Positions 1 to 61,219 of a DNA stretch of 64,000 nucleotides are shown in pieces; position 1 is the stretch's first letter, and each line of letters opens with the position of its first letter. The position numbers and the translations under genes are program-made. A model generated the notes under the pieces. The model searched no databases. It was given only the letters and a program-made list of their open reading frames with translations, and had not been told where the DNA came from. The DNA is from Myxococcota bacterium (GTDB lineage Bacteria; Myxococcota_A; SURF-8; G963677705), in the NCBI GenBank assembly GCA_963677705.1, contig OY782497.1, forward strand, positions 1,900,774-1,964,773, given 5' to 3'.

Positions 1-2
1 AA

Positions 3-260
3 TCCTGCGGTCAGTGTACGCCCTGCCGTGAGGGAACCCATTTCCTGCATCTCATCATCAAACGTTTGGAAGCCGGTCAAGGCACGATGGAAGACATCGA
101 CAAACTCTATCGACTGGCCAACAATATGGAAGGTGCAACCATCTGCCCCTTGGCCGAAGCCGCCGCGTGGCCGATGAAGTCCTTCATTACGAAGTTCCGT
201 GACGAATTTGAAGCCCATGTCACCCTGGGTCGCTGCCCGATGAATCACGCCATCGGCTGA
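3..260 (+). CDS. nuoF: NADH-quinone oxidoreductase subunit F, C-terminal fragment (5' end lies upstream of window)
   Basis: Frame 3 reads ...SCGQCTPCREGT...ICPLAEAAAWP from position 3 and ends at TGA 258-260. This is the 4Fe-4S-binding C-terminus of NuoF. It lies immediately upstream of nuoG. Confidence 0.85.
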   Translation, partial: SCGQCTPCREGTHFLHLIIKRLEAGQGTMEDIDKLYRLANNMEGATICPLAEAAAWPMKSFITKFRDEFEAHVTLGRCPMNHAIG

Positions 261-299
261 TTTTGAACGGCACGCCTTGGCGTGCGGGAGGTTTTTTTG

Positions 300-2225: not shown

Positions 2226-2245
2226 GGGGCTGAAAGGAAACGACG

Positions 2246-2743
2246 ATGGAAGCGATTTTCTTCTGGGTATTCGCGCTCATCTCCGTAACAGGCGGGTTGA
2301 TGCTGGTGTTTCATAAGAACCCCATCCATTCCGCGCTGAGTCTGGTGCTGACGCTCATCGCGACGGCAGGGCTGTTTGTGGTGCTGCGTGCCGGATTCGT
2401 CGGCGTGTTGCAGGTTTTGGTGTATGCCGGTGCGATCATGGTGCTGTTTGTCTTTGTCATCATGGTGCTTAACCTGCAACGGGAAGAACTGGGCTTGCGC
2501 CGTCATCGCCTGATTAAAGTGATGGGTATCATCCTTGCCTCCGGCTTTGGTTTGAACCTCGCTGCGATGCTCTTCGAATTGCCCACGAAAAAAGGCATTA
2601 CAGACCCTCAAGCGTTGTTCGGCACGGTGGAAGGCGTCGGCGAGTTGGTGTTCACCACCTACGTCGTTCCCTTCGAGGCGCTGTCTCTGCTTCTGCTGGC
2701 TGCCATTGTGGGCGCGGTGGTGATCGGTAAAAAACGCATTTAA
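2246..2743 (+). CDS. nuoJ: NADH-quinone oxidoreductase subunit J
   Basis: 165-aa polytopic membrane protein. [22 protein letters not shown]...[24 protein letters not shown] matches NuoJ/ND6. It starts 20 nt after the nuoG stop. Confidence 0.85.
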
Positions 2744-2786
2744 CGTTCGTTTTCGGAACGCTTTTTTCAGAAAGGGCCATCCTGAC

Positions 2787-3104
2787 ATGAGCTGGCTGAC
2801 CGACATCGGAATTTCTCATTATCTCGCCCTGGCTGCGCTGCTGTTCACCATCGGCATGATTGGGGTGTTGATCCGCAAAAACGGTTTGATTGTGTTCATG
2901 TGCATCGAATTGATGCTCAACGCCGTCAACCTGACCTTCATCGCCTTTGCCAATCAGGTGGGCAATGAGATGGGACACGCCATCGTGTTCTTCATCATGA
3001 CGGTGGCTGCTGCCGAAGCGGCGGTGGGCCTGGCAATCTTTGTCGCGTTGTACCGTGGCAAGGAAACCGTATACGTGGACGAAGCAGACTCGCTTAAGCA
3101 TTAA
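2787..3104 (+). CDS. nuoK: NADH-quinone oxidoreductase subunit K
   Basis: 105 aa. ...[21 protein letters not shown]... is NuoK/ND4L-like. It lies between nuoJ and nuoL. Confidence 0.85.
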
Positions 3105-3171
3105 CCGGACCTGCGAAGCGTAAGCCAACGCACTTTGCAACCGGCTGGCCTTGTACGAGAGGACGATCATC

Positions 3172-5241
3172 ATGGCGCACAGTGAATCTCACGAACCCCA
3201 CGCCGCCGAGAAAATCAATTGGCTTCAGGCGGCCCTGGCTCTTCTGGCCTTGGGACTACTGCTTCTTTTGCTGTTGTCGAAACTGGCCACGGGGGAAACC
3301 GTCTGCGACATCACCCAATGGGTGTTCCTGATCCCCTTGCTTCCTGGTCTGGGCGCGTTCCTGAACGGGGTCTTCAACCGTCGCCTGCCGAAGTTCGTGG
3401 TAAACATCATTGCCATCGGCAGTGTCTGGTCCAGTTTCTTCATCGGCTTGATGCTGTTCATCCAGCTCAAGATGACCGGCGAACCGGTTCACGCGGTGAT
3501 GTACCACTGGATCTTCTCCGACGCGCTGCATTTGAACATTGCCTTCACGCTGGACCAACTCAGCGGTGTGATGGTGCTGGTAGTAACCTTCGTCGGTGGT
3601 CTGATTCACCTCTACAGTGTGGGCTACATGGCCGACGACGAAAGCTATTCCCGCTACTTCACCTACCTGAACCTCTTCACCTTCAGCATGTTGGTGCTGG
3701 TACTGGGCGATTCCATTCCGCTGATGTTCGTCGGTTGGGAAGGCGTGGGCCTCTGCTCCTACCTGCTGATCGGTTTCTGGTTCGATGATCCGGCCAAGGC
3801 CACAGCGGGTAAGAAAGCGTTCATCGTCAACCGTATCGGTGACATGGGCGTGATGATCGCGATGTTCATTCTGTTCTACGCCACCGGCGCGTTGAGCTTT
3901 GCGGGGATTCAGGAAAACGTAGACAAGATCAGCCCGCTGTTGGCCACCCTGGCCTGCCTGGCGCTGTTCCTGGGAGCCACCGGCAAAAGCGCCCAGCTTC
4001 CCCTATACGTCTGGTTGCCCGATGCAATGGCCGGTCCGACACCGGTGTCCGCACTGATCCACGCTGCGACGATGGTTACCGCCGGCGTGTACATGATCGC
4101 CCGCTTGAGCTTCCTCTTCGTGCTTTCCCCGACGGCCATGCTCGTCGTGGCGACCATCGGTGGGTTGACGGCCCTGTTCGCCGCGACCATCGGCCTGTTC
4201 CAGTATGACATCAAGAAAGTACTGGCCTATTCCACCGTCAGTCAGCTTGGCTACATGTTCCTCGCCGTCGGTGTGGGAGCCTTCTCTGCCGGAGTGTTCC
4301 ACCTGATGACCCATGCCTTCTTCAAGGCCTGCCTGTTCCTCGGTTCCGGTTCGGTGATTATGGGAATGCACCACGAGCAGGACATCCGCAAAATGGGTGG
4401 CCTTGCCAAGAAAATGCCGATCACCCGCTGGACCTTCTTCCTGAGTTGCCTGGCCATTGCGGGAATCTTCCCCTTCGCCGGATTCTTCAGCAAGGACGAG
4501 ATCCTCTGGAAAGCCTTCACCACCCATAACATAGTGATCCCCGGTGCCGAATACGTGTTGTACGGCCTGGGTATGCTGGCCGCTTTCTGTACCGCGTTCT
4601 ACATGTTCCGCCTCTATTTCATCACCTTCAGCGGCGAGAACCGTGCGGACAAACACACCCAGGAACACATCAAGGAAAGCCCCTGGACGATGACCGTCCC
4701 CTTGATCATCCTTGCCGGATTCGCGACCATCATCGGCTTTGTGGGTATGCCCCACGTGATGGGTCCGAACCTCTTTGAACACCACCTGGAGCCCGTTCTT
4801 GGCGAAGCGACGAAGGTCATTGCCAGCGCAGCCGGTCATGGGGCGCATCCTTCCGCGGCTCTGGAATGGGGTATGATGGGTGTCAGCCTCGCCGTGGCGG
4901 GTTTGGGCATCGGTCTGGCCTACATGCTTTACGGTGGCGGCAAATTCGTGTTCAAAGAGAACGCCAATTTCTTCTACAAGCTGCTGCGTGACAAATACTA
5001 CGTGGATGAAGGCTACTTCTATGCCTTCGTGCGTCCCCTGGTGAATTTCAGTCAGTTCCTCTGGAAGTTCGTGGACACCTATCTCATTGATGGCTTGCTG
5101 GTTCACGCCTCCAGTTGGACCGTACGTAGCGTGGGCGAGGGACTGCGGCTCTTGCACACCGGAAACGTGCAGCACTACTTGTTTGCCTTCCTGCTTGGCG
5201 TGGTGGCGATCTTCGTCTACCTGCTGCAAGGAACGTGGTAA
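3172..5241 (+). CDS. nuoL: NADH-quinone oxidoreductase subunit L
   Basis: WLPDAMAGPTPVSALIHAATMVTAGVYMIARL is the antiporter-like NuoL signature. The ATG at 3172 follows GAGAGGA. The ORF-track start at 3151 is TTG. Confidence 0.9.
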   Translation: MAHSESHEPHAAEKINWLQAALALLALGLLLLLLLSKLATGETVCDITQWVFLIPLLPGLGAFLNGVFNRRLPKFVVNIIAIGSVWSSFFIGLMLFIQLKMTGEPVHAVMYHWIFSDALHLNIAFTLDQLSGVMVLVVTFVGGLIHLYSVGYMADDESYSRYFTYLNLFTFSMLVLVLGDSIPLMFVGWEGVGLCSYLLIGFWFDDPAKATAGKKAFIVNRIGDMGVMIAMFILFYATGALSFAGIQENVDKISPLLATLACLALFLGATGKSAQLPLYVWLPDAMAGPTPVSALIHAATMVTAGVYMIARLSFLFVLSPTAMLVVATIGGLTALFAATIGLFQYDIKKVLAYSTVSQLGYMFLAVGVGAFSAGVFHLMTHAFFKACLFLGSGSVIMGMHHEQDIRKMGGLAKKMPITRWTFFLSCLAIAGIFPFAGFFSKDEILWKAFTTHNIVIPGAEYVLYGLGMLAAFCTAFYMFRLYFITFSGENRADKHTQEHIKESPWTMTVPLIILAGFATIIGFVGMPHVMGPNLFEHHLEPVLGEATKVIASAAGHGAHPSAALEWGMMGVSLAVAGLGIGLAYMLYGGGKFVFKENANFFYKLLRDKYYVDEGYFYAFVRPLVNFSQFLWKFVDTYLIDGLLVHASSWTVRSVGEGLRLLHTGNVQHYLFAFLLGVVAIFVYLLQGTW

Positions 5242-5283
5242 GAACTTTCAGGCACTAACCGCTAGCTCGATTGGGAACCGCCT

Positions 5284-6906
5284 ATGGCAATTCAAGATTT
5301 TCCCGTATTGACCCTCATCACGATCCTGCCCTTGGTCGGCGCGGTGATGGTGGCCCTGTTGCCCAAAGGGGAGGACGGCGTCGTCAAGACCTTCGCCTTC
5401 ACCTGGTCCACCCTGGTTTTCCTCACCAGTCTGGTGATTTTCGCCGGATTCAACCCCGCCGTGCCGGGGATGCAACTGGTGGACAACCTGTCCTGGATCG
5501 ACGAATTCGGCATTCGTTTCAGCTTGGGCATTGACGGTATCAGCCTCTGGCTGGTGATTCTCACCACCTTCCTGACCCCGGTGGTGGTGCTGGGAGCCTT
5601 CAAGGCCGTGCCGAAGTACATGAAAGGCTTCATGTTCAGCATCCTGCTGCTGGAAACGGCGATGATCGGCACCTTGTTGGCCACCGACATCTTCCTGTTC
5701 TACGTGTTCTGGGAACTGATGCTGATTCCGATGTATTTCCTCATCGGCATCTGGGGTGGTCAGAAACGCCTCTACGCCGCCGTGAAGTTCTTCATCTTTA
5801 CGATGGTCGGCTCCCTGTTGATGCTTCTGGCCCTGATCTATGTCTACTACCAGCACTTCGTGCAGTTCGGCATCTGGTCTACCGACCTCCACGCCTTGCT
5901 TCAGGTGCAGTTCGGCTTGACGGAACAGGTTCTCCTGTTCATCGCCTTTGCCCTGGCCTTCGCGATCAAAGTCCCGATGTGGCCGCTGCATACCTGGTTG
6001 CCAGACGCCCATACCGAAGCGCCGACCGCCGGTTCGGTCATTCTGGCCGGTGTGCTGTTGAAGATGGGAACCTATGGTTTCCTGCGCTTCGCCATTCCTT
6101 TGTTCCCCGTGGCGGCGGCCAAGGCCATGCCGGTAATCGCCGCGCTGGCCGTGGTGGGCATCATCTACGGTGCGCTGGTGGCCTTCGTGCAGAAAGATGT
6201 CAAACGTCTGGTAGCCTATAGCTCCGTGAGCCACCTGGGCTTCGTCATGCTCGGTATTGCCGGTATGACCTTCACCAGCGTGCAGGGTGGTCTGTATCAG
6301 ATGCTGAACCACGGCATCAGCACCGGCGCCTTGTTCCTCGTGGTAGGCATGATCTACGAACGGCGTCATACGCGCATGATTTCCGACTTCGGCGGGCTGG
6401 CGAAGGTGATTCCGCTGTTCGCCACGATGTTCATGATTACCATGCTTTCCAGCATCGGCGTTCCGGGACTGAACGGCTTCGTCGGCGAGTTCCTCATCCT
6501 CACCGGAACCTTCACCAGCCAGAGCCTGCCTTACGCGCAAGTCTGGGTAGTCCTGGGAACCACGGGGGTTCTGCTGGGTGCCGTCTACATGCTGCACATG
6601 TACCAACGGGTGATGTTCGGTCCGGTAACCAAGGACGAAAACAAGGCCTTGAAGGATCTCTCCGTCCGTGAAGTGGCCGTGCTGCTGCCACTGATTCTGT
6701 TGATGTTCGTGATGGGCCTGTTCCCCAATCTCTTCCTGAAATACACGGAAAGCTCCATCCACGATCTTCTGAAAACTTACAACGCCAAGGTGGAACGCTA
6801 TGAACAGCGTGAAGCCTCGTTGTCCGAGCCGCGTCTGGGCGGGGTTCTGGCCGTGGGGCAGAGCGCCACGGATGACACCGAGAACCAAGCCGTTGTTCTT
6901 CGCTAA
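5284..6906 (+). CDS. nuoM: NADH-quinone oxidoreductase subunit M
   Basis: WLPDAHTEAPTAGSVILAGVLLKMGTYGFLRF is the NuoM/ND4 signature. 540 aa. Confidence 0.9.
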   Translation: MAIQDFPVLTLITILPLVGAVMVALLPKGEDGVVKTFAFTWSTLVFLTSLVIFAGFNPAVPGMQLVDNLSWIDEFGIRFSLGIDGISLWLVILTTFLTPVVVLGAFKAVPKYMKGFMFSILLLETAMIGTLLATDIFLFYVFWELMLIPMYFLIGIWGGQKRLYAAVKFFIFTMVGSLLMLLALIYVYYQHFVQFGIWSTDLHALLQVQFGLTEQVLLFIAFALAFAIKVPMWPLHTWLPDAHTEAPTAGSVILAGVLLKMGTYGFLRFAIPLFPVAAAKAMPVIAALAVVGIIYGALVAFVQKDVKRLVAYSSVSHLGFVMLGIAGMTFTSVQGGLYQMLNHGISTGALFLVVGMIYERRHTRMISDFGGLAKVIPLFATMFMITMLSSIGVPGLNGFVGEFLILTGTFTSQSLPYAQVWVVLGTTGVLLGAVYMLHMYQRVMFGPVTKDENKALKDLSVREVAVLLPLILLMFVMGLFPNLFLKYTESSIHDLLKTYNAKVERYEQREASLSEPRLGGVLAVGQSATDDTENQAVVLR

Positions 6907-6927
6907 TTTAGGCACAGGGTATCCACG

Positions 6928-8442
6928 ATGACAAACGTGAACCTTTCCGAATTCATTCATCTTGCGCCCATCCTGATTCTCAGCGCGTTCGCGTTGGCCG
7001 TGCTTCTGCTGGATGTCTTCAGCGACCACGCGCCGGATCGTAAACGCATGGGCTATCTCACCCTTCTGGGCCTGGGCCTTGCCGTTCCGGTATTGCTCTA
7101 CCAACTGGGCATGGATGGCGCAAAGCCGCTGTTTTCCGGAATGATCGCTTTAGACGGCTTCGGCACCTACTTCAACCTGCTCTTCGTAACGGGTTCAATG
7201 GTCACGGTGCTGTTGGCCATGACCTATTTTGAGGAACACGGCCTGCATCGCGGGGAATTTTACGCGCTGGTGCTCTTCGCCACGGTGGGGATGATGCTCA
7301 TGGGTATGAGTACCGACCTCATCAGCTTCTTCGTAGGTCTGGAATTGATGTCGATCAGCATCTACGTGCTGGCCGGGTTCATGCGCCACGATCCGCAATC
7401 GGTGGAAAGCAGCCTGAAGTACTTCCTGATGGGAGCCTTCGCCACCGGCTTTCTGATGATGGGCGTGGCCTATCTCTACGGACTGGCCGGGAGTACCAAC
7501 CTCGCGATGGTCGCTCAAGCTCTGGCGGGCAAAGTCAGCGTCGCTCAGACTCTGGGTGGAAATGCAGCCAGCCTTTACGGCCATATCGGGATGTTCTTCA
7601 TCGTCATCGGCTTCGGCTTCAAGGTGGCCTCGGTGCCCTTCCACATGTGGACGCCGGATGTCTATCAGGGCGCGCCGACACCGGTGACCGCGTTCATGGC
7701 CGCGCTGGTCAAAGCGGCGGCCTTCGGTGGGTTCGTGCGCATCTTCGCCACCGCGCTTTACAGCCTGAAGAGCGGAAGCTTCGACTGGTATTCCATCCTC
7801 TGGGTGCTGGCCGTGTTGACCATGACCTGGGGTAACGTCGTTGCTCTGACCCAAGACAACATCAAGCGGATGCTGGCCTATAGCTCCATTGCTCACGCCG
7901 GTTACCTGCTCATCGGTTTCCTGGCTATTTCCAAGGCGGGAAGCGCCGTCAGCGCTATTCTGTTCTACCTGGCCGCCTATACGGTGATGAACATGGGTGC
8001 CTTCGCCGTGGTGATCCTCGCCGGGCGTCGCGGGGATGAAAACCAGGATCTCACCGGCAAGGGCTGGGCGGGCTTCGGACGTCGCAATCCCGGTTTGGGG
8101 GCGGCGATGACCCTCTTCATGCTCAGCCTGGCCGGGATTCCCGGAACCATCGGCTTCATGGGTAAATTCTACGTCTTCCGCGCCGCCATTGAGGAACACC
8201 TCTATGTGCTGGCTCTGCTGGGCGTACTGAACAGCCTGATCAGCGTGTTTTACTACCTGCGCGTGATTCTGGTGATGTTCATGAAGGATTCCGAGGCCGA
8301 CAGCGAACCGGCCAGTGCCTTGCGCTTCGCCACACCGGGAACCCTGGCGGTGATCCTGATGACTGTGTTGACCGTGGGCTTGGGCCTTCTGCCCTCCGTC
8401 CTGCTGCAACTGACCGACTCCGCCTCAAAAACCCTGTTCTAA
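6928..8442 (+). CDS. nuoN: NADH-quinone oxidoreductase subunit N
   Basis: 504-aa antiporter-like membrane protein. FHMWTPDVYQGAPTPVTAFMA matches the NuoN/ND2 motif. It is the last gene of the nuo block. Confidence 0.85.
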   Translation: MTNVNLSEFIHLAPILILSAFALAVLLLDVFSDHAPDRKRMGYLTLLGLGLAVPVLLYQLGMDGAKPLFSGMIALDGFGTYFNLLFVTGSMVTVLLAMTYFEEHGLHRGEFYALVLFATVGMMLMGMSTDLISFFVGLELMSISIYVLAGFMRHDPQSVESSLKYFLMGAFATGFLMMGVAYLYGLAGSTNLAMVAQALAGKVSVAQTLGGNAASLYGHIGMFFIVIGFGFKVASVPFHMWTPDVYQGAPTPVTAFMAALVKAAAFGGFVRIFATALYSLKSGSFDWYSILWVLAVLTMTWGNVVALTQDNIKRMLAYSSIAHAGYLLIGFLAISKAGSAVSAILFYLAAYTVMNMGAFAVVILAGRRGDENQDLTGKGWAGFGRRNPGLGAAMTLFMLSLAGIPGTIGFMGKFYVFRAAIEEHLYVLALLGVLNSLISVFYYLRVILVMFMKDSEADSEPASALRFATPGTLAVILMTVLTVGLGLLPSVLLQLTDSASKTLF

Positions 8443-8467
8443 CCGACAGGCTCCTGCTACGTATACG

Positions 8468-8497
8468 AAAACCCGGCCAGATGGCCGGGTTTTCTGC
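8468..8497 (+). terminator. Rho-independent terminator after nuoN
   Basis: aaaCCCGGCCagatGGCCGGGttttctgctg is a GC-rich hairpin followed by a T-run, 26 nt after the nuoN stop. Confidence 0.6.
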
Positions 8498-8982
8498 TGA
8501 GGTATCTTCCACACCAGGAACGGCCTTCCTCTCTCTTCCCCCTTCTTCCTCCCTTTGAATACTCCTATTCTTTCCCTGGAGTGCGATGTTCAATCCGGGA
8601 AGGTTGAGTGATGGAGGGAACATAATCGATGTTTTTGAACCAGCAGCACATCATTCGAACTCAGACAGGGTGCGCTCATGGCGAGTGATTCATCGACGAT
8701 GAATTGGTTCGAGCCACGAGCGATCCTTCGATACACCGCCCTCCGGGCGGCACTCAGGATGAGCGAAGAGAAACAACCAAGCCGAAAATAGCAGTCAGAA
8801 TGAGCAGAGAGAACCTCCCCATGATAACGTCAATGTACCCACATGGAAATTCACACCCTGCCCCTGTGACACGCCGTGCGCCGTTGACAAGAAAGTATCT
8901 CCCCGCTATACTGCCTTTTACTTCTTCACGAAAAACGACTCTTCTTACACAGTCCACCCCTTGACTCTGAAAGGCGGTTGTC

Positions 8983-11358
8983 ATGCGTTGGTCATTTCTG
9001 GCCCTTTTCCTTTTGAGTATTTGCACGTTTCTGCTTTCTTCCTGTGGAGATGATGGCGGCTCGTCCTCTGATTCCTCGGATGGTGACCTCGTTGCCGACG
9101 GGGATGATGAAACAGGGACGGAAGAAGATGGAGACACGGAAGACGACACGGAGCCGGCCAGGGTTTCGGAAAATTACAAGGTGCGCGGCAGCATCGAGCA
9201 GATTTATATCTGGTTGGCCGAGCCGGGGATCACGATGGAAGTCGTTTCCTCCCAGGATGAAGTCATCGCCTCCGGTGAAACGGATGATCTGGGCAGCCTT
9301 GTTTTTCGTACCCTGCCCCCTGCCGAAGACTACCGCGTGCGCCCGGCTGATGACCCGGATGATTACACCGACCAGATCCATGTCATGTCCATTGAAGGCA
9401 GCCAGCCGGACGAGGACTTCTACGCATCGCAGACCCTCCAACCGGGCTATGGCTATCTGACCGCCCGCGATGGAACCACCCTCTCCATCTTCGTTTCCCT
9501 GCCGGGGCCGGTGGAAGACGGGCCGTATCCGACGGTGGTCAACTATTCCGGCTACAGCCCATCGCGACCGGGGCAATCGTTGGGAGAAACCGCCGAGTTG
9601 TTCTGCGACGACTACCCCATCCTCTGTGACGCCCCCAGCGCGCCATCGGCCTTGATTGCCGGGGTGATGGGCTATGCCTCGGTCAGCGTCAACCTGCGGG
9701 GAACCGGCTGTTCCGGTGGAGCCTATGACTACTTCGAGCCGATGCAGATTCTGGATGGCTACGACGTGATTGAAATTGTCGCCCGTCAGTCCTGGGTCAA
9801 GCACCACAAAGTGGGCATGGTCGGCCTCTCCTACCCCGGTATCACGCAGTTGTTCGTCGCCAGTTCCAATCCACCCAGCCTTGCCGCCATTGCACCCTTC
9901 TCCGTCATCGCCGACACGGTCACGTCCACCCTGGTTCCGGGAGGTATCTACAACAACGGGTTTGCCCTGGAATGGATTCAGATGGTCTTGGACAAAGCCA
10001 GCCCGTATGCCCATCAGTGGATTGTCGATCTGGTGGACGCCGGAGACACGATCTGCGAAGAAAACCAGCTTCTGCACGGACAAAAACTGGATGCCATCGC
10101 CAAAGCGCTGGAGAATCCCTACTACACGGATGAGGTCGCCAAACCCTTGGACCCCACCACCTTCGTACAGAAAATCAACGTTCCGGTCTTCATGACCGGT
10201 CAGACCCAGGATGAACAGACCGGCCCCCATTTTCCAGCCTTGTTTGACAAATTCACCCAATCGCCCGTGACGCGGTTCACCGTGACCAACGGGATTCACA
10301 TGGATGGCTTTGCACCGCAGATTCTTGGGGAATGGGCCAACTTCCTTTCCTTCTACGTCAACCGGGAAATCCCCGGCATCGACTCCACCGTTCGCGGGAT
10401 TGTGCCGCTGTTCATGGTGGATGTCTACGGCGCGCAAGGCTTGTCCCTGCCGCCGGAGCGCTTTACAGAGTACACGGATTTCGAACAGGCCAAGGCGGAC
10501 TACGAAGCGGAAGATGCGATCCGGGTGATTTTTGAAACGGGAGCCCAAGAAGGCATCACGCCCGGCGGGCCGGAGGGCGTGTTTGAAGCCGGATTCAGCG
10601 AATGGCCCATTCCGGAACTCGTTCCCACGCGCTACTACTTCCAACCGGGAGGGGCTATGTCCCTCACCACTCCCGATGCCACCGAAAGCGCCTCGTGGTT
10701 CATTCCCGACCCGGAAGCGGGGGACCGGATCACCTTGAACAGCGGCTCGGTGGAAACCCCGCAACCGGATTACATCTATCGGGATCTCGTTTCCGGCAAG
10801 GCGGTCAGCTTCCTCAGCGAAGCCCTTGAAGACGATCTCTTTCTGATCGGTCCGGGGTCGGTGGATCTGTGGATTCAATCGACGGCGGATGATGCCGACC
10901 TGGAAGTACAACTGAGCGACGTGCGGCCCGATGGCAAGGAATCCTTCATTCAGAATGGCTGGTTGCGGGCCAGTCATCGCACCCTGTTACCGGAAAGCAC
11001 CGACCTGCGCCCCGTTTCCTCCCATTACGAAGAGGATGTCTCTCCGCTTCCCGCCGACGAATGGACCCTCGTCCGTGTGGAGCTGATGGCGATCAACCAC
11101 ATTGTCCGGGCCGGATCTCGCCTGCGCCTGAGCATCGACACCCCCGGCGATAGCTGCGCCAGATGGCGGTTTCTGCTCCTGGAAACGGACGACGACACGC
11201 GGCACTACATCGCTCATGACTCCACTCATCCGTCCAGCATGGTGCTACCCGTCGTTCCGGATCTTGTCACCGAGGGCGAGCGGCCCGACTGCACGGCCCT
11301 TCGCGGCCAACCCTGCCGGGACTATCTTGACTTCGTGAACAACGAAGCCCTGCCCTGA
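8983..11358 (+). CDS. Acidic lipoprotein with CocE/NonD (Xaa-Pro dipeptidyl-peptidase, S15) family hydrolase domain
   Basis: The signal peptide plus lipobox LLSSC is followed by a D/E-rich linker (GDDGGSSSDSSDGDLVADGDDETGTEEDGDTEDD). Later comes ...MVGLSYPGITQLF, a GxSYxG nucleophile motif typical of CocE/NonD hydrolases. 791 aa. Confidence 0.65.
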   Translation: MRWSFLALFLLSICTFLLSSCGDDGGSSSDSSDGDLVADGDDETGTEEDGDTEDDTEPARVSENYKVRGSIEQIYIWLAEPGITMEVVSSQDEVIASGETDDLGSLVFRTLPPAEDYRVRPADDPDDYTDQIHVMSIEGSQPDEDFYASQTLQPGYGYLTARDGTTLSIFVSLPGPVEDGPYPTVVNYSGYSPSRPGQSLGETAELFCDDYPILCDAPSAPSALIAGVMGYASVSVNLRGTGCSGGAYDYFEPMQILDGYDVIEIVARQSWVKHHKVGMVGLSYPGITQLFVASSNPPSLAAIAPFSVIADTVTSTLVPGGIYNNGFALEWIQMVLDKASPYAHQWIVDLVDAGDTICEENQLLHGQKLDAIAKALENPYYTDEVAKPLDPTTFVQKINVPVFMTGQTQDEQTGPHFPALFDKFTQSPVTRFTVTNGIHMDGFAPQILGEWANFLSFYVNREIPGIDSTVRGIVPLFMVDVYGAQGLSLPPERFTEYTDFEQAKADYEAEDAIRVIFETGAQEGITPGGPEGVFEAGFSEWPIPELVPTRYYFQPGGAMSLTTPDATESASWFIPDPEAGDRITLNSGSVETPQPDYIYRDLVSGKAVSFLSEALEDDLFLIGPGSVDLWIQSTADDADLEVQLSDVRPDGKESFIQNGWLRASHRTLLPESTDLRPVSSHYEEDVSPLPADEWTLVRVELMAINHIVRAGSRLRLSIDTPGDSCARWRFLLLETDDDTRHYIAHDSTHPSSMVLPVVPDLVTEGERPDCTALRGQPCRDYLDFVNNEALP

Positions 11359-11420
11359 CCGGGGCAGACGCTCACCCGACGCGGCCTACCGTCCGTGTCG
11401 CCACAATGGTGTCATAACAC

Positions 11421-11452
11421 GAAAAAGGAGTTACGAGAAACTCGTAACTCCT
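11421..11452 (-). terminator. Rho-independent terminator downstream of tRNA on minus strand
   Basis: Perfect 12-bp stem AGGAGTTACGAG/CTCGTAACTCCT with a 3-nt loop. On the minus strand it is followed by TTTTTCGTGTT, directly 3' of the tRNA. Confidence 0.55.
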
Positions 11453-11461
11453 TGATCTTAC

Positions 11462-11538
11462 TGGTACCGCCTATCTGATTTGAACAGATGACCTCCTGAT
11501 CCACAGTCAGGCGCTCTAACCAACTGAGCTAAGGCGGC
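11462..11538 (-). tRNA. tRNA-His (anticodon GUG); no encoded G-1, G1.U72 wobble pair, A73, genomically encoded CCA
   Basis: The reverse complement folds as a canonical cloverleaf. Acceptor GCCGCCT/AGGCGGT, D-arm GCTC-AGTTGGTTA-GAGC, anticodon arm CCTGA-CUGUGGA-TCAGG, T-arm ATCTG-TTCAAAT-CAGAT, then ACCA. The base 5' of G1 is C. Confidence 0.75.
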
Positions 11539-11935
11539 GTAAAGCCTTTGCCGAAACGGCAGGTAGGTAACCTAGTGAATACCGCGTGATCTGTCAAGGA
11601 TTTTCTCCGGCAAACCAAAGCGCGGTGATTCGAACGCTGGCAGGGGGAACGACCGGGGCAAGATGCAGGATGGACCTGGAAAGAACCGGAGAAAAGACAG
11701 GCGGGGAAGGGTCATGAGCCGCGAATGTAAATGAAAAGGGAGACCTGCCATCATCGCTCAACCTAGGTACTGCCGTCTGATCGAAGCGGAATCTCCACAT
11801 TGTTGAGCGACGACACCTATATACTTAATCGGGTTTTCTTTTCTTTGCCTGGAATGGTAGCTTGGGCGGCGTACAGATCGTTTGGCTACTCTTCTGCATT
11901 CCTATGGCTCGATCAAGCAACGAGGAGGACATAAT

Positions 11936-12826
11936 ATGAACCTGGCAGATACATTGAAAACCTTGGATCGCCCGATGATTTCCTTTGAGTTCTTCCCACC
12001 GCGGACTGAAAAAGCGGCGGCGGGTTTTGAAGGCACGATCGAGACCCTGGCGAAACTCAAACCCGACGTCGTCAACGTAACCTTCGGGGCGGGTGGCTCA
12101 ACCCGCGAGGGGAGCTACCAGATTGTTGATATGCTGAAGAACCGAAAAGGCTTGAACACGGTGGCTTATGTTGCCGGCTACGGTCTGGGGCCCGACGATA
12201 TTGCTGCGGTCGTCCAAGGCTATGAAACACTGGGAATTGAAACCCTTTTTGTCATCCGTGGCGATGAACCCAAGGGAGACGACAGCTTCCGGCCTCACCC
12301 CGACAGCATGGCCTATGCCTCTGAGATGATCGGCTTCATTGCATCTCAATCTTCTCTTTGCCTCGGTGCAGCCGGATACCCGGAAGGTCATATTGATGCA
12401 ACAAGCAAGGATGAGGATCTCAAGCACCTGAAGGCAAAGGTTGATAAGGGCGCAAAGTACATTGTTGCTCAGTATGTTTATGATGTGAATCTGTTCTTCG
12501 ATTTCGTCCGGCGCGCCCGCGAGATGGGTATTGAAGTTCCGATCCTACCGGGTATCATGCCCATCTATTCAGAGAAGCTGACCCGTAACCTGGCGCGGAT
12601 CTGCGGTGCGTCAATCACCGAAGACATTGAAAAGGGTTTGGCTGCCCTGCCGCCGGACGACAAGCAGGCAGTGCTTGATTACGGGGTTCAGGTAGCAACA
12701 CAGCAGTGTCGTGAATACCTGCGCCGAGGCGTGGACGGGCTGCATTTCTATACGATGAATCGTGCCAATACCGTGGTGCGTGTGATCGAACAGCTCCGGC
12801 AGGAGGGCTTGCTTCCATCCGGTTGA
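11936..12826 (+). CDS. metF: 5,10-methylenetetrahydrofolate reductase
   Basis: MNLADTLKTLDRPMISFEFFPPRTEKAAAG...VNVTFGAGGSTREGS...HFYTMNRA. The SFEFFPPRT MetF signature is present and the protein is collinear with E. coli MetF. GGAGGA sits 8 nt upstream of the ATG at 11936. Confidence 0.9.
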   Translation: MNLADTLKTLDRPMISFEFFPPRTEKAAAGFEGTIETLAKLKPDVVNVTFGAGGSTREGSYQIVDMLKNRKGLNTVAYVAGYGLGPDDIAAVVQGYETLGIETLFVIRGDEPKGDDSFRPHPDSMAYASEMIGFIASQSSLCLGAAGYPEGHIDATSKDEDLKHLKAKVDKGAKYIVAQYVYDVNLFFDFVRRAREMGIEVPILPGIMPIYSEKLTRNLARICGASITEDIEKGLAALPPDDKQAVLDYGVQVATQQCREYLRRGVDGLHFYTMNRANTVVRVIEQLRQEGLLPSG

Positions 12827-13089
12827 TTCCGCGTGGAGTCAGGTGGTGATGAAGCCATAGCCCGTTGCAGGGTTTCCCACCGATGTATCACGAGCGTACT
12901 CTCCGGTAGGCCGGGTTCATTCAGAACCCGGCCTTTGGGATTCCACCATTTTCGTTTGGCGACTGGGGTATCTTTTGATTGCAAGGGACTGATATGACGT
13001 CGCCAGACAAAAAGATGAAAATTCAAACCCTTCGTCAGCCAAGTACCCAGATCAGGGTTCTTTTATTAACCCGGCGATTAGAACCGAGC

Positions 13090-13200
13090 TTAAGAATCGT
13101 CATCCTCCGCGCAGGCGGAGGATCCAGTCAACTGAGTTTACTCTGGATTCCCGCCTTCGCGGGAATGACAAAATGGATGCTTCGTCTAACTTATTGTTGC
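13090..13200. repeat. Pair of REP-like hairpin elements (GTCATYCYCCGCGNAGGCGGRGRATCCAG) in inverted orientation plus shared flank
   Basis: 13099-13127 reads gtcatcctccgcgcaggcggaggatccag. 13143-13169 reads ctggattcccgccttcgcgggaatgac, its reverse complement. About 75 bp (13125-13200) matches the reverse complement of 22630-22705. Confidence 0.6.
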
Positions 13201-14948: not shown

Positions 14949-16319
14949 TCAATGGTACATCTCATAGACAGATTCCATTGGCCCTGCAACACCTCGAATT
15001 GCACATTCACTGCGTTCAAGATACAAATAATCTCCGCCATCTGTCGTTGCATCACAAAAGGATGACCCTATGGCTCCTGGTATTGCGGGACTCCCATCTC
15101 CTCCATAATATATGTCGCGTTGATATGGTTCTTCATCTCCAGCAATCTTCCATAGTTTTTGACTCTCTTCATCAATGCTAAAAACATCGGCTTGTGATCC
15201 TTCGTAAAACATCACACCAACATCAGTCATAAAGAACTGGTTAGGGTAGTAATACGCTTTTGTGTCAAATGACATTCCATCATATGGACATCCACGAGAA
15301 TCGTTTCCGAACGGGCAATCGTTCATGGCCCCAGGACCACTTATAGCTTTCATTTTCATAAGCATGTCATCATCACTGTAATCAACATGATAGATATGAC
15401 CGCCAAATCCAGCATAACCGCTATTATCATCAAATATTTGCAGGCTATAAATAAGATCATAATTTCCCACATCAATGCACTCACCAGCATCATCATACAT
15501 GCATATACCTATTTCTTCACGCGAACCATCCAATGTCAGCCTAGATACCCCGCGACCTGTTGTAGCAATAATTTTCTCATCATCGATATAACTAACTATA
15601 TAGTATGACTTAACAGAAGACGGATCGTCTCTCGTATATTTTTCACATACATAGTCATCAACACGCTTACTGTCCAAACCATACAAAACAACACATGTAT
15701 ACAACGAGTCATCGTTATCATAACCATCATCGTTTTCATCGACATAAACATTCAATGGGATGAGCATGTTTCGCTTATATATTTTTGCGATCCCAGCAGT
15801 GAACAACTTGCATCCATTATCAATTCCGAATTGCATTCCATATACGTAGTATTCTTCAAATCCACCATCCTCTGCAAGAAATACCATACGAAACACCACG
15901 TTATCGGAAATAGAAGAAGATAGATCATCCGGCCCCAAGACCATCACTGCGTTGTTCAGATCCGGATCCCAAACCATACTACGGACTGTACAATCCTTTG
16001 TATTATTCTCCACAGGTAGAAAACCATAGGTAAACAACTCTCCCGTCTCTACGTCATCCCTCCATAGAGTCTTTTTCTCCTTGGCCCACCAAGGGTTAAA
16101 AGGACGACCGTCATCAACAATCGTGTAATCACCGTAGTCTTCTGTAGAGTTATCGTATAGGCCAGATTCTCCTTCGCAGATCACAAGCTCTGCGGGTTCC
16201 GGGGTCTGGGAGTTGTCTTCCTGTCGGCATCCGGCAGAAAGCATCAACAGAACAACAAGCGTGATGGTGTGATATGCAAACCGCGTCATGGTCGTGTCAT
16301 CCTTTCCAGACTGATTCAT
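14949..16319 (-). CDS. Hypothetical lipoprotein (markedly AT-rich gene)
   Basis: 456-aa ORF. The N-terminus ...MTRFAYHTITLVVLLMLSAGCRQED has an L-S-A-G-C lipobox. The product is D/Y/N-rich and acidic. GC content is visibly far below neighbouring genes. No recognisable family. Confidence 0.55.
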   Translation of the reverse strand: MNQSGKDDTTMTRFAYHTITLVVLLMLSAGCRQEDNSQTPEPAELVICEGESGLYDNSTEDYGDYTIVDDGRPFNPWWAKEKKTLWRDDVETGELFTYGFLPVENNTKDCTVRSMVWDPDLNNAVMVLGPDDLSSSISDNVVFRMVFLAEDGGFEEYYVYGMQFGIDNGCKLFTAGIAKIYKRNMLIPLNVYVDENDDGYDNDDSLYTCVVLYGLDSKRVDDYVCEKYTRDDPSSVKSYYIVSYIDDEKIIATTGRGVSRLTLDGSREEIGICMYDDAGECIDVGNYDLIYSLQIFDDNSGYAGFGGHIYHVDYSDDDMLMKMKAISGPGAMNDCPFGNDSRGCPYDGMSFDTKAYYYPNQFFMTDVGVMFYEGSQADVFSIDEESQKLWKIAGDEEPYQRDIYYGGDGSPAIPGAIGSSFCDATTDGGDYLYLERSECAIRGVAGPMESVYEMYH

Positions 16320-20006: not shown

Positions 20007-22544
20007 ATGGGAACTTTGCTAGTTGTGGATGACAGTCGTACCATCCGTCAAGCGGTACAAATGACCTTTCAGAATACGGGTATCCAGGTTTTGGAGGCGG
20101 ACAACGTTCCGCAAGGCCTGGACATTCTTCGTCAACAGAAACCAGACATGGTGTTGGTGGATCTTGTCATCCAGGGTGACGCGGAAGCCGGCTTTTCCTT
20201 TGCCGAACAAGCCTTGAGCGGAAGCCAGACAGGCCGTATTCCGATCTTCATTCTCTCTGGAAAGAACCGCAACGTAGACAAGAAGCGGGCGAAACTGATC
20301 GGTGCCAAGGTGTTTATCAAGCCCTTCGACACCCAGGATCTCATCGACCTGGCAGAGCTGACCATTGCGGAAAGCGATCAGAAGCAAAGTTCGGCTCCCG
20401 CTCCGGGTTCCCCAACTCAAAACGCGATGGAAGCCGCTTCCGCGCCTCGCATGACCATGCAGATGAGCGCTTTCAACCCCGATGCCATTGCGGCACCGGC
20501 AGACCCCTTCGGTGTTCCTGCGGCCCCAAAACCCACAGCGAGCATCCCAGCAGCAGCTCCGATGCCCGATCCTTTTGCCGCTCCGCCTCAGCAGGCTCCG
20601 GCAGCAGACCCCTTCGCGGCTGCGCCTCAACAGACTCCGGCGGCAGATCCTTTCGCCGCTCCGCCTCAGCAGGCTCCGGCAGCAGACCCCTTCGCGGCTG
20701 CGCCTCAACAGGCTCCGGCAGCAGATCCCTTCGCCGCTGCACCTCAACAGGCTCCGGCGGATGATCCCTTCGCTTCTGCACCTCAACAGGCTCCGGCAGC
20801 AGATCCCTTCGCCGCTGCACCTCAGCAGGCTCCGACAGCAGACCCCTTCGCCGCTGCACCTCAACAGGCTCCGGCGGAAGATCCTTTCGCTGCTGCACCT
20901 CAGCAGGCTCCGGCAGCAGACCCCTTCGCCGCTGCACCTCAACAGGCTCCGGCGGAAGATCCTTTCGCTGCTGCACCTCAGGCCGACCCGGTGGAGATGG
21001 ATGGCGACGATCTGGAGATTATGGATGACTTGGAGGAAATCGAAGAAGTCGAAGCTATCGAACCGGAATTGGAACAAACCAATACCCCGGTGGAATTCGA
21101 CGAAGGCGATTTGGACCTGATCGAAGACGATCTGGAAGAGCCGGATTACCAAGACATGGTCACCACGGATGACGTTGTGGCCGAAGCCGCTCCGGCAGCA
21201 GACCCCTTCGCGGAAGACGACCCCTTCGGCCCTCTACCGGACCCGCCCTCTACGCAGAAAGCGGAACCGATCGCCGATCCCTTCGCCGGATTGGATCAGG
21301 CTCCTATTGAAGAACCCCCTTTGGAGGTTGCTCCCAAAGACAGCCCCAAAGATCCCTTTGCCGGATTGGCCGATCCCGGCTTTGACGACGAGCCGTTGGA
21401 AACCCACGCCAAAGCTCCCAACGATCCCTTCGCCGGACTGAACGAACCGGAACCCGAACCGGAGATTCCGGAGGTAGAGGCCGAGCCGGAGGAATTGGAC
21501 GCCGTCGAGTTGGAAGAGGAACCCGCCGAGGCGATGGAGATTGAACAGATCGACCCGGAACCCATTCCGGACATTGACCTGGAACCCGGCCCAGACGCAG
21601 AGTTGGAGGTCGAAGCACTGCCGGAATTGGAAAGCGTGGATCTGGATGAAGACGCCGCGGAACCCATCCCCACGGAGTCCGAGCAACCCGTTCCCAACGT
21701 CCCTATTCCCACCCCGGAACCGGTTGATGTACCGGAACAATCCGCTCCTCTGGAAGTGGAAAGCCAAAGCATGGCTGAAGCGCAGTTCTTCGCCACCCAG
21801 ACCCAGACGGTTAAGGCTCCCGTGCTGACCGATCCCAAAGCCCAGCCTGTGGAACCGGTTCCGGCAGAACCCATTCAGGAATCCGCAAGCGATGCTCTGG
21901 AGTATGAGAGTCCCGTTCGCATCACCGACGCCAGCCTGGAAGCGCATGGCGATGGTGACAATGGTGACTTTGTGGATGCTGCTCAGATCATGGCCCTGAT
22001 GCGTAAAGTCCTGCGTGAAGAACAAGCCCAGGCTCCGGCAATGGCCGCCCAGGCCGCTTCCGCGCCTTCCGCTGGAGTGGACATGAATGAACTACGCGAT
22101 GTCGTCCGCAGCGTTGTTCGCGACGAAATGAAAGCCAACCAGACGGCTCCTGCCGCGCAGGCTGTGGATACCGTGGCTCTCTCTGCGGCCTTGTCTCAAA
22201 CCGTGAAGGCCGAACTGGCCAAAATGCCTGCACCTCAGGCTGCGGCCCCCGTGGCTTCAGACAAACTCTCGGATGGCCAGATGCGCACCATCGTCAAGGT
22301 GGTGGCTGAAACCGTTCATTCCGTGGTGCAGGGTGAAATGACCAATGCCCTGGCGAAACTGCCTGCCCCCAGTGCCTCTGCCGGTGGCGGCGGCGGCGCG
22401 GATCTGACGACCATCCGTCAAGCCATTCAAGAAGAGATTGGCCAACTGATGAGCCAGAAGATTGAAGCCATTGCCTGGGAGGTGGTTCCCAAGATGGCGG
22501 AAACCATCCTCAAGCGGGTTATCGCCAAGCAACAGCAAGGCTAA
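20007..22544 (+). CDS. Response regulator (N-terminal receiver domain) with long Pro/Ala-rich tandem-repeat and poly-acidic regions
   Basis: MGTLLVVDDSRTIRQAV...DMVLVDLVIQGD...KPF is a CheY-like receiver with phospho-acceptor Asp. Then ~10.8 tandem DPFAAAPQQAPAA repeats, a D/E-rich stretch with further DPF(A/G) motifs, and an Ala-rich C-terminal region. 845 aa. Confidence 0.8.
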   Translation: MGTLLVVDDSRTIRQAVQMTFQNTGIQVLEADNVPQGLDILRQQKPDMVLVDLVIQGDAEAGFSFAEQALSGSQTGRIPIFILSGKNRNVDKKRAKLIGAKVFIKPFDTQDLIDLAELTIAESDQKQSSAPAPGSPTQNAMEAASAPRMTMQMSAFNPDAIAAPADPFGVPAAPKPTASIPAAAPMPDPFAAPPQQAPAADPFAAAPQQTPAADPFAAPPQQAPAADPFAAAPQQAPAADPFAAAPQQAPADDPFASAPQQAPAADPFAAAPQQAPTADPFAAAPQQAPAEDPFAAAPQQAPAADPFAAAPQQAPAEDPFAAAPQADPVEMDGDDLEIMDDLEEIEEVEAIEPELEQTNTPVEFDEGDLDLIEDDLEEPDYQDMVTTDDVVAEAAPAADPFAEDDPFGPLPDPPSTQKAEPIADPFAGLDQAPIEEPPLEVAPKDSPKDPFAGLADPGFDDEPLETHAKAPNDPFAGLNEPEPEPEIPEVEAEPEELDAVELEEEPAEAMEIEQIDPEPIPDIDLEPGPDAELEVEALPELESVDLDEDAAEPIPTESEQPVPNVPIPTPEPVDVPEQSAPLEVESQSMAEAQFFATQTQTVKAPVLTDPKAQPVEPVPAEPIQESASDALEYESPVRITDASLEAHGDGDNGDFVDAAQIMALMRKVLREEQAQAPAMAAQAASAPSAGVDMNELRDVVRSVVRDEMKANQTAPAAQAVDTVALSAALSQTVKAELAKMPAPQAAAPVASDKLSDGQMRTIVKVVAETVHSVVQGEMTNALAKLPAPSASAGGGGGADLTTIRQAIQEEIGQLMSQKIEAIAWEVVPKMAETILKRVIAKQQQG
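20568..20990 (+). repeat. Coding tandem repeat, 39-bp unit x ~10.8 (DPFAAAPQQAPAA) inside response-regulator gene
   Basis: Near-identical 39-nt units (gatcccttcgccgctgcacctcaacaggctccggcagca and variants) are repeated head-to-tail. Individual units differ by single-codon substitutions (A/P, A/T, A/E, A/D). Confidence 0.85.
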
Positions 22545-57796: not shown

Positions 57797-57813
57797 GATC
57801 TCCTCGCTCCCAC

Positions 57814-58323: not shown

Positions 58324-58334
58324 ATCCTTCTCCC

Positions 58335-59866: not shown

Positions 59867-59877
59867 CCAAGCCCTCC

Positions 59878-60402: not shown

Positions 60403-60619
60403 TGGACATTCTCCATGCAATCCAACCCGCACTTTTGACATGCAATTTTCATTCCACGAAGAGGGGCAACTTTGAAAAGCGTTGTGATTTTCAAACGATA
60501 CTACAAAGCACCGAGAACTCAAAGTATATTTCTCTGTGAGGAAAAGCCTTGGCGGATCACCCCTTGCAGTTTCTGAAAAAGCCATCGATTTTCCAGGAAA
60601 AACCTGCAAGGTTTGCAGC

Positions 60620-61216: not shown

Positions 61217-61219
61217 GAT

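What the first reader, a model, noticed from the sequence alone, without database searches (positions are those of the whole stretch)
11462..11538. Atypical tRNA-His: no encoded G-1, G1.U72 pair and A73 discriminator
Bacterial tRNA-His genes almost universally encode an extra 5' G(-1) pairing with C73, a key HisRS identity element. Here position -1 is C and the discriminator is A. The acceptor closes with a G1.U72 wobble. A G-1-less, A73 tRNA-His is known from a subgroup of Alphaproteobacteria with co-adapted HisRS. Finding it next to Myxococcota-like genes (PEGA kinases, pilB-T-C-A order) is taxonomically informative. It also predicts a non-canonical HisRS.
Basis: partly seen in the sequence, partly recalled or inferred. 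Interest (0 to 1): 0.5.

Follow-up and report, generated by a model that had tools for sequence, protein, structure and literature searches.

The report
G-1-less tRNA-His outside Alphaproteobacteria
A real histidine tRNA gene that lacks the near-universal extra 5' G, of the type so far described among bacteria only in some Alphaproteobacteria, sits in the genome of an uncultured Myxococcota-like bacterium, which suggests that this alternative way of recognising tRNA-His has crossed phylum borders.

Summary
ARAGORN and Rfam find one tRNA in the window, tRNA-His(GUG), on the minus strand at 11538->11462. It has C at -1, a G1.U72 wobble, A73 and an encoded CCA. No other register gives a G-1:C73 pair.

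It also has C3-G70 and a 9-nt D loop with U20a, so it carries every tRNA-side hallmark of the G-1-less class characterised in Caulobacter. It is 78-86.5% identical to tRNA-His of Pseudorhodobacter, Methylobacterium and a Pelagibacterium contig, and 67% to E. coli hisR.

The host is not an alphaproteobacterium. For NuoG/L/M/N, MetF and the S15 peptidase, almost all nearest named relatives are Myxococcota or "Deltaproteobacteria" MAGs. No alphaproteobacterium is among the best 80 NuoM loci. A second assembly, 99% identical, carries the same gene in the same place.

The most likely reading is a functional tRNA-His charged by a G-1-independent HisRS, with the tRNA or the whole pair acquired horizontally. 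The genome's hisS, any Thg1-like gene and other tRNA-His copies could not be reached, so the mechanism is inferred.

This is a new member of a known kind, of moderate interest.

The parts
11462..11538 (-). tRNA-His(GUG) gene, 77 nt including the encoded CCA. It has C at -1 (11539), G1.U72, A73, C3-G70, a 9-nt D loop (AGUUGGUUA, U20a) and G37.
   Evidence: ARAGORN; Rfam RF00005 at 71.5 bits; sequence; identical in L002.
11569..11597 (-). Promoter-like site: TTGACA (11597-11592), a 17-nt spacer, then TAGGTT (11574-11569). It ends 30 nt upstream of G1, which would give a short 5' leader for RNase P.
   Evidence: Read directly from the sequence. The automatic scan did not list it because the -10 hexamer matches only 3 of 6. 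This is a consensus match only.
11425..11453 (-). Intrinsic-terminator-like hairpin with a 13-bp stem and 3-nt loop, followed by TTTTCGTG. It starts 9 nt after the CCA.
   Evidence: scan_promoters_terminators.

Best explanation
This is a functional, separately transcribed tRNA-His(GUG) gene of the G-1-less class.

Shown: it has the fold, the anticodon, no encoded G-1, G1.U72, A73, C3-G70 and U20a. It has a promoter-like site and a terminator. It is embedded in a Myxococcota-like chromosome in two assemblies.

Inferred, step 1: C-1 cannot pair with A73, so RNase P should cut at the normal +1 site and the mature tRNA should start at G1.

Inferred, step 2: the tRNA is charged by a histidyl-tRNA synthetase that does not need G-1. 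That enzyme would read the anticodon, U72 and A73, as shown biochemically for Caulobacter crescentus HisRS.

Inferred, step 3: all neighbouring genes tested point to an uncultured Myxococcota-affiliated host, while the tRNA is of the type so far described only in Alphaproteobacteria. The tRNA, and probably the matching synthetase, therefore entered this lineage by horizontal transfer. The alternative is that the class is more widespread than the literature says.
For: Class features: against the definition in PMC3064791.

Similarity to verified alphaproteobacterial tRNA-His:
- Pseudorhodobacter turbinis 83%, with an identical 5' acceptor strand, D arm, G26 and variable loop.
- Methylobacterium bullatum 78%.
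- 56 distinct tRNA-His sequences of this type differ from ours at only 3-11 of 60 positions outside the T arm. One of them lies on a contig whose HisRS is 100% identical to a Pelagibacterium sp. protein.
- E. coli hisR is only 67% identical.

The divergence is concentrated in the T arm (5-9 of 17 positions, against 3-5 of 60 elsewhere, in the closest sequences), which has not been reported as a HisRS identity element. This fits selection by a synthetase of the Caulobacter type.

Host is non-alphaproteobacterial:
- NuoM's best 80 loci contain no alphaproteobacterium. After one MAG at 92%, the nearest are 'Myxococcota bacterium' MAGs at 66-70%. NuoG, NuoL and NuoN agree.
- MetF and the S15 peptidase have nearest named hits in Deltaproteobacteria, Myxococcota, Myxococcales and Polyangia.
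- A PEGA Ser/Thr kinase and a type IV pilus cluster are present.

The same gene sits in the same place on a 4.08 Mb contig of another sample. It has a terminator and a promoter-like site. No integrase or transposase domain was found in the flanking ORFs scanned, and the tRNA 3' end is not duplicated.

The HisRS class with Gly in place of the C73-contacting Gln of the motif-2 loop occurs in proteins labelled Planctomycetota and Zixibacteria as well as in Alphaproteobacteria. A related Saprospiraceae cluster has Ser at that position. Such a synthetase outside Alphaproteobacteria is therefore plausible.
Against: The genome's hisS was never seen, so the key partner is only predicted. I could not count the tRNA-His genes in the genome or look for a Thg1-like gene.

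No relative with a tRNA-His at this locus was found. The closest relative found (L126, 82% nt identity over the nuo operon) loses synteny exactly at the nuoN stop. In relatives the same position after the S15 peptidase holds tRNA-Ala or tRNA-Glu plus tRNA-Gln. This position therefore changes its tRNA content, and the gene could be a recent addition.

Overall identity is a weak guide to ancestry: a Proteus tRNA-Thr is 79.5% identical. 39 of the 60 positions outside the T arm were fixed by my own search pattern in the metagenome set, so only the BLAST-found sequences are unbiased comparators.

Host taxonomy rests on NCBI labels of MAGs. The closest one is labelled Sedimentisphaerales (Planctomycetota).
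Confidence: 0.55

Rival explanations
1. Passenger copy. The gene is an extra, horizontally acquired tRNA-His that coexists with a canonical G-1:C73 tRNA-His and a canonical HisRS. It is charged poorly or not at all and contributes little to translation.
For: The locus is not syntenic in the closest relative found. The position after the S15 peptidase carries different tRNAs in different relatives. A 43% GC orphan ORF lies 3.4 kb away. In IMG/VR, tRNA-His genes of this type often lie at provirus ends, which shows they take part in mobile-element traffic.
Against: The cloverleaf is intact at 71.5 bits, with its own terminator and promoter-like site. No integrase, transposase or att-like repeat was found nearby. 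The T arm has diverged strongly while every reported identity position is kept. That looks like long residence under selection, not a fresh or decaying import.
Confidence: 0.2
2. Eukaryote-style maturation. G-1 is added after transcription opposite A73 by a Thg1-like 3'-5' polymerase, and a conventional G-1-dependent HisRS then charges the tRNA.
For: A73 with no encoded G-1 is the eukaryotic arrangement. Thg1-like proteins exist in some bacteria including Myxococcus xanthus, and the Bacillus thuringiensis and M. xanthus enzymes guanylylate tRNA-His in vitro (PMC3245924).
Against: Bacterial Thg1-like proteins strongly prefer templated addition opposite C73. The gene also has U72 and U20a, which matter for the Caulobacter-type HisRS and are not explained by a Thg1 route. 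No Thg1 domain was found in the ORFs scanned with Pfam, which cover most but not all of the window's coding sequence.
Confidence: 0.1
3. Independent origin in this lineage. The host's own tRNA-His, or a recruited tRNA-Thr-like gene, and its HisRS converged on the same G-1-independent solution without transfer from Alphaproteobacteria.
For: The tRNA is 79.5% identical to a gammaproteobacterial tRNA-Thr, so much of the shared sequence is generic. HisRS with the Gly loop occurs in several phyla. C32 and the AU-rich T stem are absent or rare among the 56 tRNA-His sequences of this type.
Against: The 7-bp acceptor stem is identical to the commonest variant in the set collected with my pattern. The D arm, G26, variable loop AGGUC and G37 also match verified alphaproteobacterial sequences. 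Convergence on all of these is unlikely.
Confidence: 0.1
4. Contamination or chimeric assembly. An alphaproteobacterial fragment was joined to a Myxococcota-like contig.
For: The tRNA type disagrees with the taxonomy of the flanking genes.
Against: The same junctions are present in a second assembly from another sample on a 4.08 Mb contig, at 99.0% identity across 20.8 kb. The tRNA lies 104 nt from the S15 peptidase stop and 394 nt from the metF start, and both genes are Myxococcota-like. Local GC is ordinary.
Confidence: 0.02

Closest known systems
G-1-less tRNA-His / HisRS pair of Caulobacterales, Rhizobiales, Rhodobacterales, Parvularculales and most SAR11 (characterised in Caulobacter crescentus: Yuan et al. 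2011, PMC3064791; Wang et al. 2007; Ardell and Andersson 2006)
   Same: No encoded G-1, A73, G1.U72, C3-G70, a 9-nt D loop with U20a, GUG anticodon, G37 and an encoded CCA. It is 78-86.5% identical to members of the class, with the acceptor stem identical to the commonest variant in the set I collected.
   Different: The host is Myxococcota-like, not alphaproteobacterial. It has C32 where 54 of 56 members have U, G4-C69 instead of the G4.U69 of the two cultured examples, and an AU-rich T stem AUCUG/CAGAU. The partner HisRS was not seen.
Canonical bacterial tRNA-His (E. coli hisR type: encoded G-1 paired with C73, kept by an unusual RNase P cleavage)
   Same: GUG anticodon, cloverleaf, encoded CCA.
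   Different: E. coli hisR has G at -1, G1-C72, C73 and an 8-nt D loop, and is only 67% identical. None of these features is present here.
Eukaryotic cytosolic tRNA-His matured by Thg1
   Same: A73, and no G-1 in the gene (PMC3245924).
   Different: Eukaryotes add G-1 after transcription. Here U72 and U20a point to the Caulobacter-type recognition instead, and no Thg1 gene was seen in the window.
G-1-independent histidine identity of Acanthamoeba castellanii and Trypanosoma brucei (PMC3561963, PMC4338351)
   Same: The same functional outcome: tRNA-His without G-1, charged by a non-canonical HisRS.
   Different: These are eukaryotes that lost G-1 independently. No sequence relationship was tested.

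Membership tests
G-1-less tRNA-His class (Caulobacter type) | tRNA fold with GUG anticodon | tested here: met
   ARAGORN; Rfam at 71.5 bits.
G-1-less tRNA-His class (Caulobacter type) | No genome-encoded G at -1 able to pair with position 73 | tested here: met
   Position -1 is C (11539) and 73 is A. No alternative register works.
G-1-less tRNA-His class (Caulobacter type) | A73 discriminator | tested here: met
   A at 11465, followed by CCA.
G-1-less tRNA-His class (Caulobacter type) | G1.U72 wobble pair (U72 is a major identity element for C. crescentus HisRS) | tested here: met
   G at 11538, U at 11466. Definition from PMC3064791.
G-1-less tRNA-His class (Caulobacter type) | Conserved C3-G70 pair. 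The paper prints 'C3-G71'; I read this as position 70, the pairing partner of C3. | tested here: met
   C3 at 11536, G70 at 11468.
G-1-less tRNA-His class (Caulobacter type) | 9-nt D loop with the extra U20a | tested here: met
   The D loop is AGUUGGUUA. E. coli has the 8-nt AGUUGGUA.
G-1-less tRNA-His class (Caulobacter type) | Co-occurring divergent HisRS: about 470-550 aa with insertions, and Gly instead of Gln in the motif-2 loop (FRNEKPGPGRFRQF against E. coli FRHERPQKGRYRQF) | not testable with these tools
   hisS is not in the window. The source genome could not be retrieved.
G-1-less tRNA-His class (Caulobacter type) | Carrier belongs to the alphaproteobacterial clade that carries this pair (treated in the literature as a shared derived trait of that clade) | tested here: not met
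   There is no alphaproteobacterium among the best 80 NuoM loci, and the nearest named are Myxococcota MAGs. MetF and the S15 peptidase agree.
Canonical bacterial tRNA-His | Encoded G-1 pairing with C73, and G1-C72 | tested here: not met
   C-1, A73 and G1.U72. The E. coli control shows G-1, C73 and G1-C72.
Thg1-dependent tRNA-His (eukaryote type) | A73 with no encoded G-1 | tested here: met
Thg1-dependent tRNA-His (eukaryote type) | Thg1 or Thg1-like 3'-5' polymerase encoded in the genome | not testable with these tools
   None was found among the window ORFs scanned with Pfam. The rest of the genome was not available.

The most novel reading that the evidence does not exclude
An uncultured Myxococcota-affiliated lineage has given up the G-1:C73 rule and now uses a G-1-independent HisRS/tRNA-His pair of the Caulobacter type as its only histidine system, obtained by transfer across phyla. 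Together with the Gly-loop HisRS seen in Planctomycetota- and Zixibacteria-labelled genomes, this would mean that loss of G-1 is not a one-off trait unique to Alphaproteobacteria. It would instead be a transferable orthogonal identity module that has replaced the resident system more than once.
Probability: 0.4. Interest if true: 0.7.

Novelty: new member of a known kind. Interest (0 to 1): 0.5.

Why it matters
G-1 of tRNA-His is one of the most conserved tRNA identity elements. Its loss in bacteria is described, in every paper and review I could read, as confined to one alphaproteobacterial clade. This includes the 2023 review PMC9976931. Amrine et al. [quoted passage not shown]

A member of the same class in a Myxococcota-like genome would show three things. 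First, an orthogonal synthetase/tRNA pair can move between phyla and take hold, which is usually thought to be blocked by identity rules. Second, the trait should be used with caution as a clade marker. Third, it would offer a naturally diverged pair for genetic-code engineering.

The case is directly testable from the complete genome.

Tried and rejected
1. Retrieving the source contig by exact protein look-up failed. Only a 99%-identical sister contig, L002, could be read.

2. A strict tRNA pattern found nothing in the GTDB species genomes.

3. A relaxed pattern in JGI metagenomes gave 120 or more loci of this tRNA-His type. None is syntenic with the window.

4. A NuoM-based scan of species genomes gave the taxonomic neighbourhood. 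No tRNA-His lies within 10 kb in any of the 80 loci.

5. I looked for a tRNA-His next to MetF or S15-peptidase orthologues in ten relatives' loci (L001, L206-L212, L221-L225). None had one; only other tRNAs were found.

6. I tried to reach the genome's HisRS. A tblastn probe of all 2.2 Mb of fetched loci found only a Pelagibacterium hisS. A homologue search with it returned only Devosiaceae. A representative search plus cluster look-ups found Gly-loop HisRS in other phyla, but none on the 5.18 or 4.08 Mb contigs.

7. An IMG/VR scan gave 6 hits, no closer than 85% and mostly at contig ends. There is no evidence for a phage vector.

8. An att-like duplicate of the tRNA 3' end was not found.

9. 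I considered building a covariance model of the class. I dropped it because the training set had been selected with a pattern derived from this very tRNA, which would make the test circular.

10. The minimum-free-energy fold does not give the cloverleaf. This is usual for single tRNA sequences, and the covariance-model match is the relevant test.

Full report

ARAGORN reports a single tRNA in the 64 kb window: tRNA-His with anticodon GTG at 11462-11538 on the minus strand. The Rfam tRNA model matches 11538-11465 full length at 71.5 bits against a gathering score of 29, E = 1.2e-13.

Read 5'->3' on the minus strand the gene is: c(-1) GCCGCCU UA GCUC AGUUGGUUA GAGC G CCUGA CUGUGGA UCAGG AGGUC AUCUG UUCAAAU CAGAU AGGCGGU A CCA.

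- Position -1 is C, 1:72 is a G.U wobble, the discriminator is A73 and CCA is encoded.
- If G11538 is treated as G-1, it faces no C at position 73, and U8 and A14 move out of place.
- E. coli hisR, read the same way, shows G-1, G1-C72, C73 and an 8-nt D loop.
- The gene is not an artefact. A 4.08 Mb contig from another sample (ENA ERZ21831104 ctg97512l, locus L002) is 99.0% identical over 20.8 kb and carries the identical tRNA in the same place.

**2. What kind of tRNA-His is it?**

Yuan et al. [quoted passage not shown] They show that C. crescentus HisRS uses the anticodon, U72 and A73 as identity elements (PMC3064791). All five tRNA-side features are present here.

A BLAST of the 77 nt against the plasmid/chromid collection puts the tRNA-His of Pseudorhodobacter turbinis (Rhodobacterales) first, at 83% over the full length. 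Methylobacterium bullatum (Hyphomicrobiales) has the same type.

A relaxed pattern found at least 120 loci in JGI metagenomes and 6 in IMG/VR. Together with the two cultured examples these give 56 distinct sequences, 73-86.5% identical to ours. One of these contigs (L105) also encodes a 511-aa HisRS that is 100% identical to a Pelagibacterium sp. protein, which confirms that at least that contig is alphaproteobacterial.

Outside the T arm our tRNA differs from these sequences at only 3-11 of 60 positions, and 34 of the 56 differ at 5 or fewer. Typical differences are one compensated anticodon-stem pair plus C32. Inside the 17-nt T arm, the closest sequences differ at 5-9 positions.

Two cautions apply:
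- 39 of the 60 positions outside the T arm were fixed by my own pattern, so the two BLAST-found cultured species are the unbiased comparators.
- A Proteus tRNA-Thr(UGU) is 79.5% identical, so overall identity alone says little about ancestry.

E. coli hisR is 67% identical.

**3. Is it expressed as a normal gene?**

A 13-bp hairpin followed by a T-run starts 9 nt after the CCA. On the same strand, TTGACA, a 17-nt spacer and TAGGTT end 30 nt before G1. This is a consensus match only, below the scan's threshold for the -10 hexamer.

There is no integrase or transposase domain in the flanking ORFs scanned and no second copy of the tRNA 3' end in the window.

**4. Whose genome is it?**

The gene order is:
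- nuoG to nuoN (282-8442)
- S15-family peptidase (8983-11358)
- tRNA-His
- metF (11933-12826)
- FGE-sulfatase-domain protein
- an orphan ORF with 43% GC
- a PEGA-domain Ser/Thr kinase
- an SDR
- a response regulator
- an 8933-aa ORF
- a type IV pilus cluster: pilY1, pilX, pilW, an unassigned ORF, a GspH/FimT-like pilin, pilC, pilT

Scanning one genome per GTDB species with NuoM returned 569 relatives. The best 80 contain no alphaproteobacterium:
- The top hit, at 92%, is a MAG labelled Sedimentisphaerales.
- The next three, at 66-70%, are labelled Myxococcota or Myxococcales.
- All others are at 59% or less. They are labelled Deltaproteobacteria, Thermodesulfobacteriota, Polyangia, Bdellovibrionota, Acidobacteriota and others.

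NuoG, NuoL and NuoN give the same order. MetF's nearest named hits are Deltaproteobacteria (67%) and Myxococcota. The S15 peptidase belongs to a large family whose named members are Myxococcales, Myxococcota, Polyangia and Deltaproteobacteria. One member lies on the same 'Myxococcota bacterium' chromosome (OZ223209.1) as the NuoM hit.

I conclude that the host is an uncultured Myxococcota-affiliated bacterium. The single Planctomycetota label on the closest MAG disagrees with every other marker and is probably a binning or labelling error, but I could not check it.

**5. How does it most likely work?**

C-1 and A73 cannot pair, so the feature that makes bacterial RNase P cut one position early is absent (PMC3245924). 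The mature 5' end should be G1.

A canonical HisRS loses more than 100-fold in efficiency without G-1. A working tRNA of this kind therefore needs a G-1-independent HisRS of the Caulobacter type. The pattern of conservation fits that: the acceptor stem, D arm, anticodon arm and variable loop are kept, while the T arm is free to drift.

I could not see the synthetase:
- hisS is not in the window.
- The source contig is not retrievable.
- A search seeded with the Pelagibacterium enzyme returned only Devosiaceae.
- The 50%-identity representative search could not be tied to this genome.

That last search did show something relevant. The motif-2 loop has Gly at the position of the Gln of E. coli HisRS (FRHERPQKGRYRQF against FRNEKPGPGRFRQF). 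Amrine et al. report that this Gln interacts with the G-1:C73 pair. The Gly form is also found in full-length HisRS clusters whose named members are Planctomycetes/Planctomycetota and Zixibacteria. A related Saprospiraceae cluster has Ser at that position. A G-1-independent-looking HisRS outside Alphaproteobacteria is thus not far-fetched.

**6. Rival explanations**

(a) Passenger copy beside a canonical system.
- For: synteny with the closest relative found ends exactly at the nuoN stop. The position after the S15 peptidase holds tRNA-Ala(CGC) in one relative and tRNA-Glu plus tRNA-Gln in another.
- Against: the gene is intact, has its own terminator and promoter-like site, and has no mobile-element genes nearby. 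Its T arm has diverged while the identity positions have not.

(b) Addition of G-1 by a Thg1-like enzyme. Myxococcus xanthus has such a protein with activity in vitro. However, bacterial enzymes prefer templated addition opposite C73, and U72 and U20a are not explained.

(c) Independent convergence. This is made unlikely by the identical 7-bp acceptor stem, D arm, G26, variable loop and G37.

(d) Chimeric assembly. This is refuted by the second assembly.

**7. Comparison with what is known, and novelty**

By every tRNA-side criterion this is a member of the G-1-less class. It fails only the taxonomic criterion, and the synthetase criterion is untested.

In the literature I could search, the bacterial cases are confined to Alphaproteobacteria. 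[quoted passage not shown] The same restriction appears in PMC3245924, PMC5370408, PMC5389517 and the 2023 review PMC9976931. Searches combining tRNAHis with Myxococc*, Planctomycet* or metagenom* found no report of a non-alphaproteobacterial case. Wang et al. 2007 is not held in the library, so I cannot exclude that exceptions are mentioned there.

I rate it a new member of a known kind, found in an unexpected phylum. The interest is moderate and would rise if the genome proves to have switched entirely to this system.

Noticed in passing
window 22813-49614 (-): A single ORF of 8933 aa (TTG start as listed). Pfam finds only Big_13, Y_Y_Y, Ig_J, a 3-keto-disaccharide-hydrolase-like stretch and a C-terminal FGE-sulfatase domain. 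It lies next to the type IV pilus minor-pilin/PilY1 cluster (54266-63593) and may be a giant surface protein.
   Followed up: partly
window 14949-16319 (-): An orphan ORF of 456 aa in a 43% GC stretch, against about 57% elsewhere. It has no Pfam hit and is conserved in the sister assembly L002.
   Followed up: no
window 11462-11538; L212 12522-12597; L225 12504-12660: In three relatives the S15 peptidase gene is followed, within 100-200 nt and on the opposite strand, by one or more tRNA genes of different identity. These are His (window), Ala-CGC (L212), and Glu-CTC plus Gln-CTG (L225). L211, L221 and L224 have none there. The tRNA content of this position changes between relatives.
   Followed up: partly
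L126 (CAXXXG010000043.1) 4903-13172 against window 1-8443: The closest relative found (82% nt, about 90% aa over nuoG-N) is labelled 'Sedimentisphaerales bacterium' (Planctomycetota). Every other marker points to Myxococcota. Synteny stops exactly at the nuoN stop codon. This is likely a mis-binned or mislabelled contig.
   Followed up: partly
proteins P0431, P0465, P0434 and their clusters: HisRS of the long form found in these Alphaproteobacteria, whose best structural matches are eukaryotic, occurs in genomes labelled Planctomycetota and Zixibacteria with Gly in place of the C73-contacting Gln in the motif-2 loop, and in Saprospiraceae with Ser there. Whether their tRNA-His also lacks G-1 was not testable here.
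   Followed up: partly
L105 1648-3183 (hisS), 554-1651 (hisZ-like), 6111-6184 (tRNA-His), all on the minus strand: In a Pelagibacterium contig the G-1-less tRNA-His lies 2.9 kb from hisS and a hisZ-like ORF. In some Alphaproteobacteria the pair is therefore close enough to move together. This was seen in 1 of 120 loci.
   Followed up: partly
L213-L218 (IMG/VR): Five of the six viral-contig matches to this tRNA-His type lie within about 460 nt of a contig end. This is the pattern expected for proviruses integrated at tRNA-His.
   Followed up: no
window 20568-20981 (+), inside ORF 20007-22544: An array of 39-nt (13-aa) tandem repeats inside the 845-aa response-regulator ORF. It appeared as staggered matches in the window-against-L002 BLAST.
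   Followed up: no
L220 61-136 against window 11462-11538: This class of tRNA-His resembles bacterial tRNA-Thr: a GCCG.. acceptor start, A73 and variable loop AGGUC. Proteus tRNA-Thr(UGU) is 79.5% identical, more than E. coli tRNA-His at 67%.
   Followed up: no
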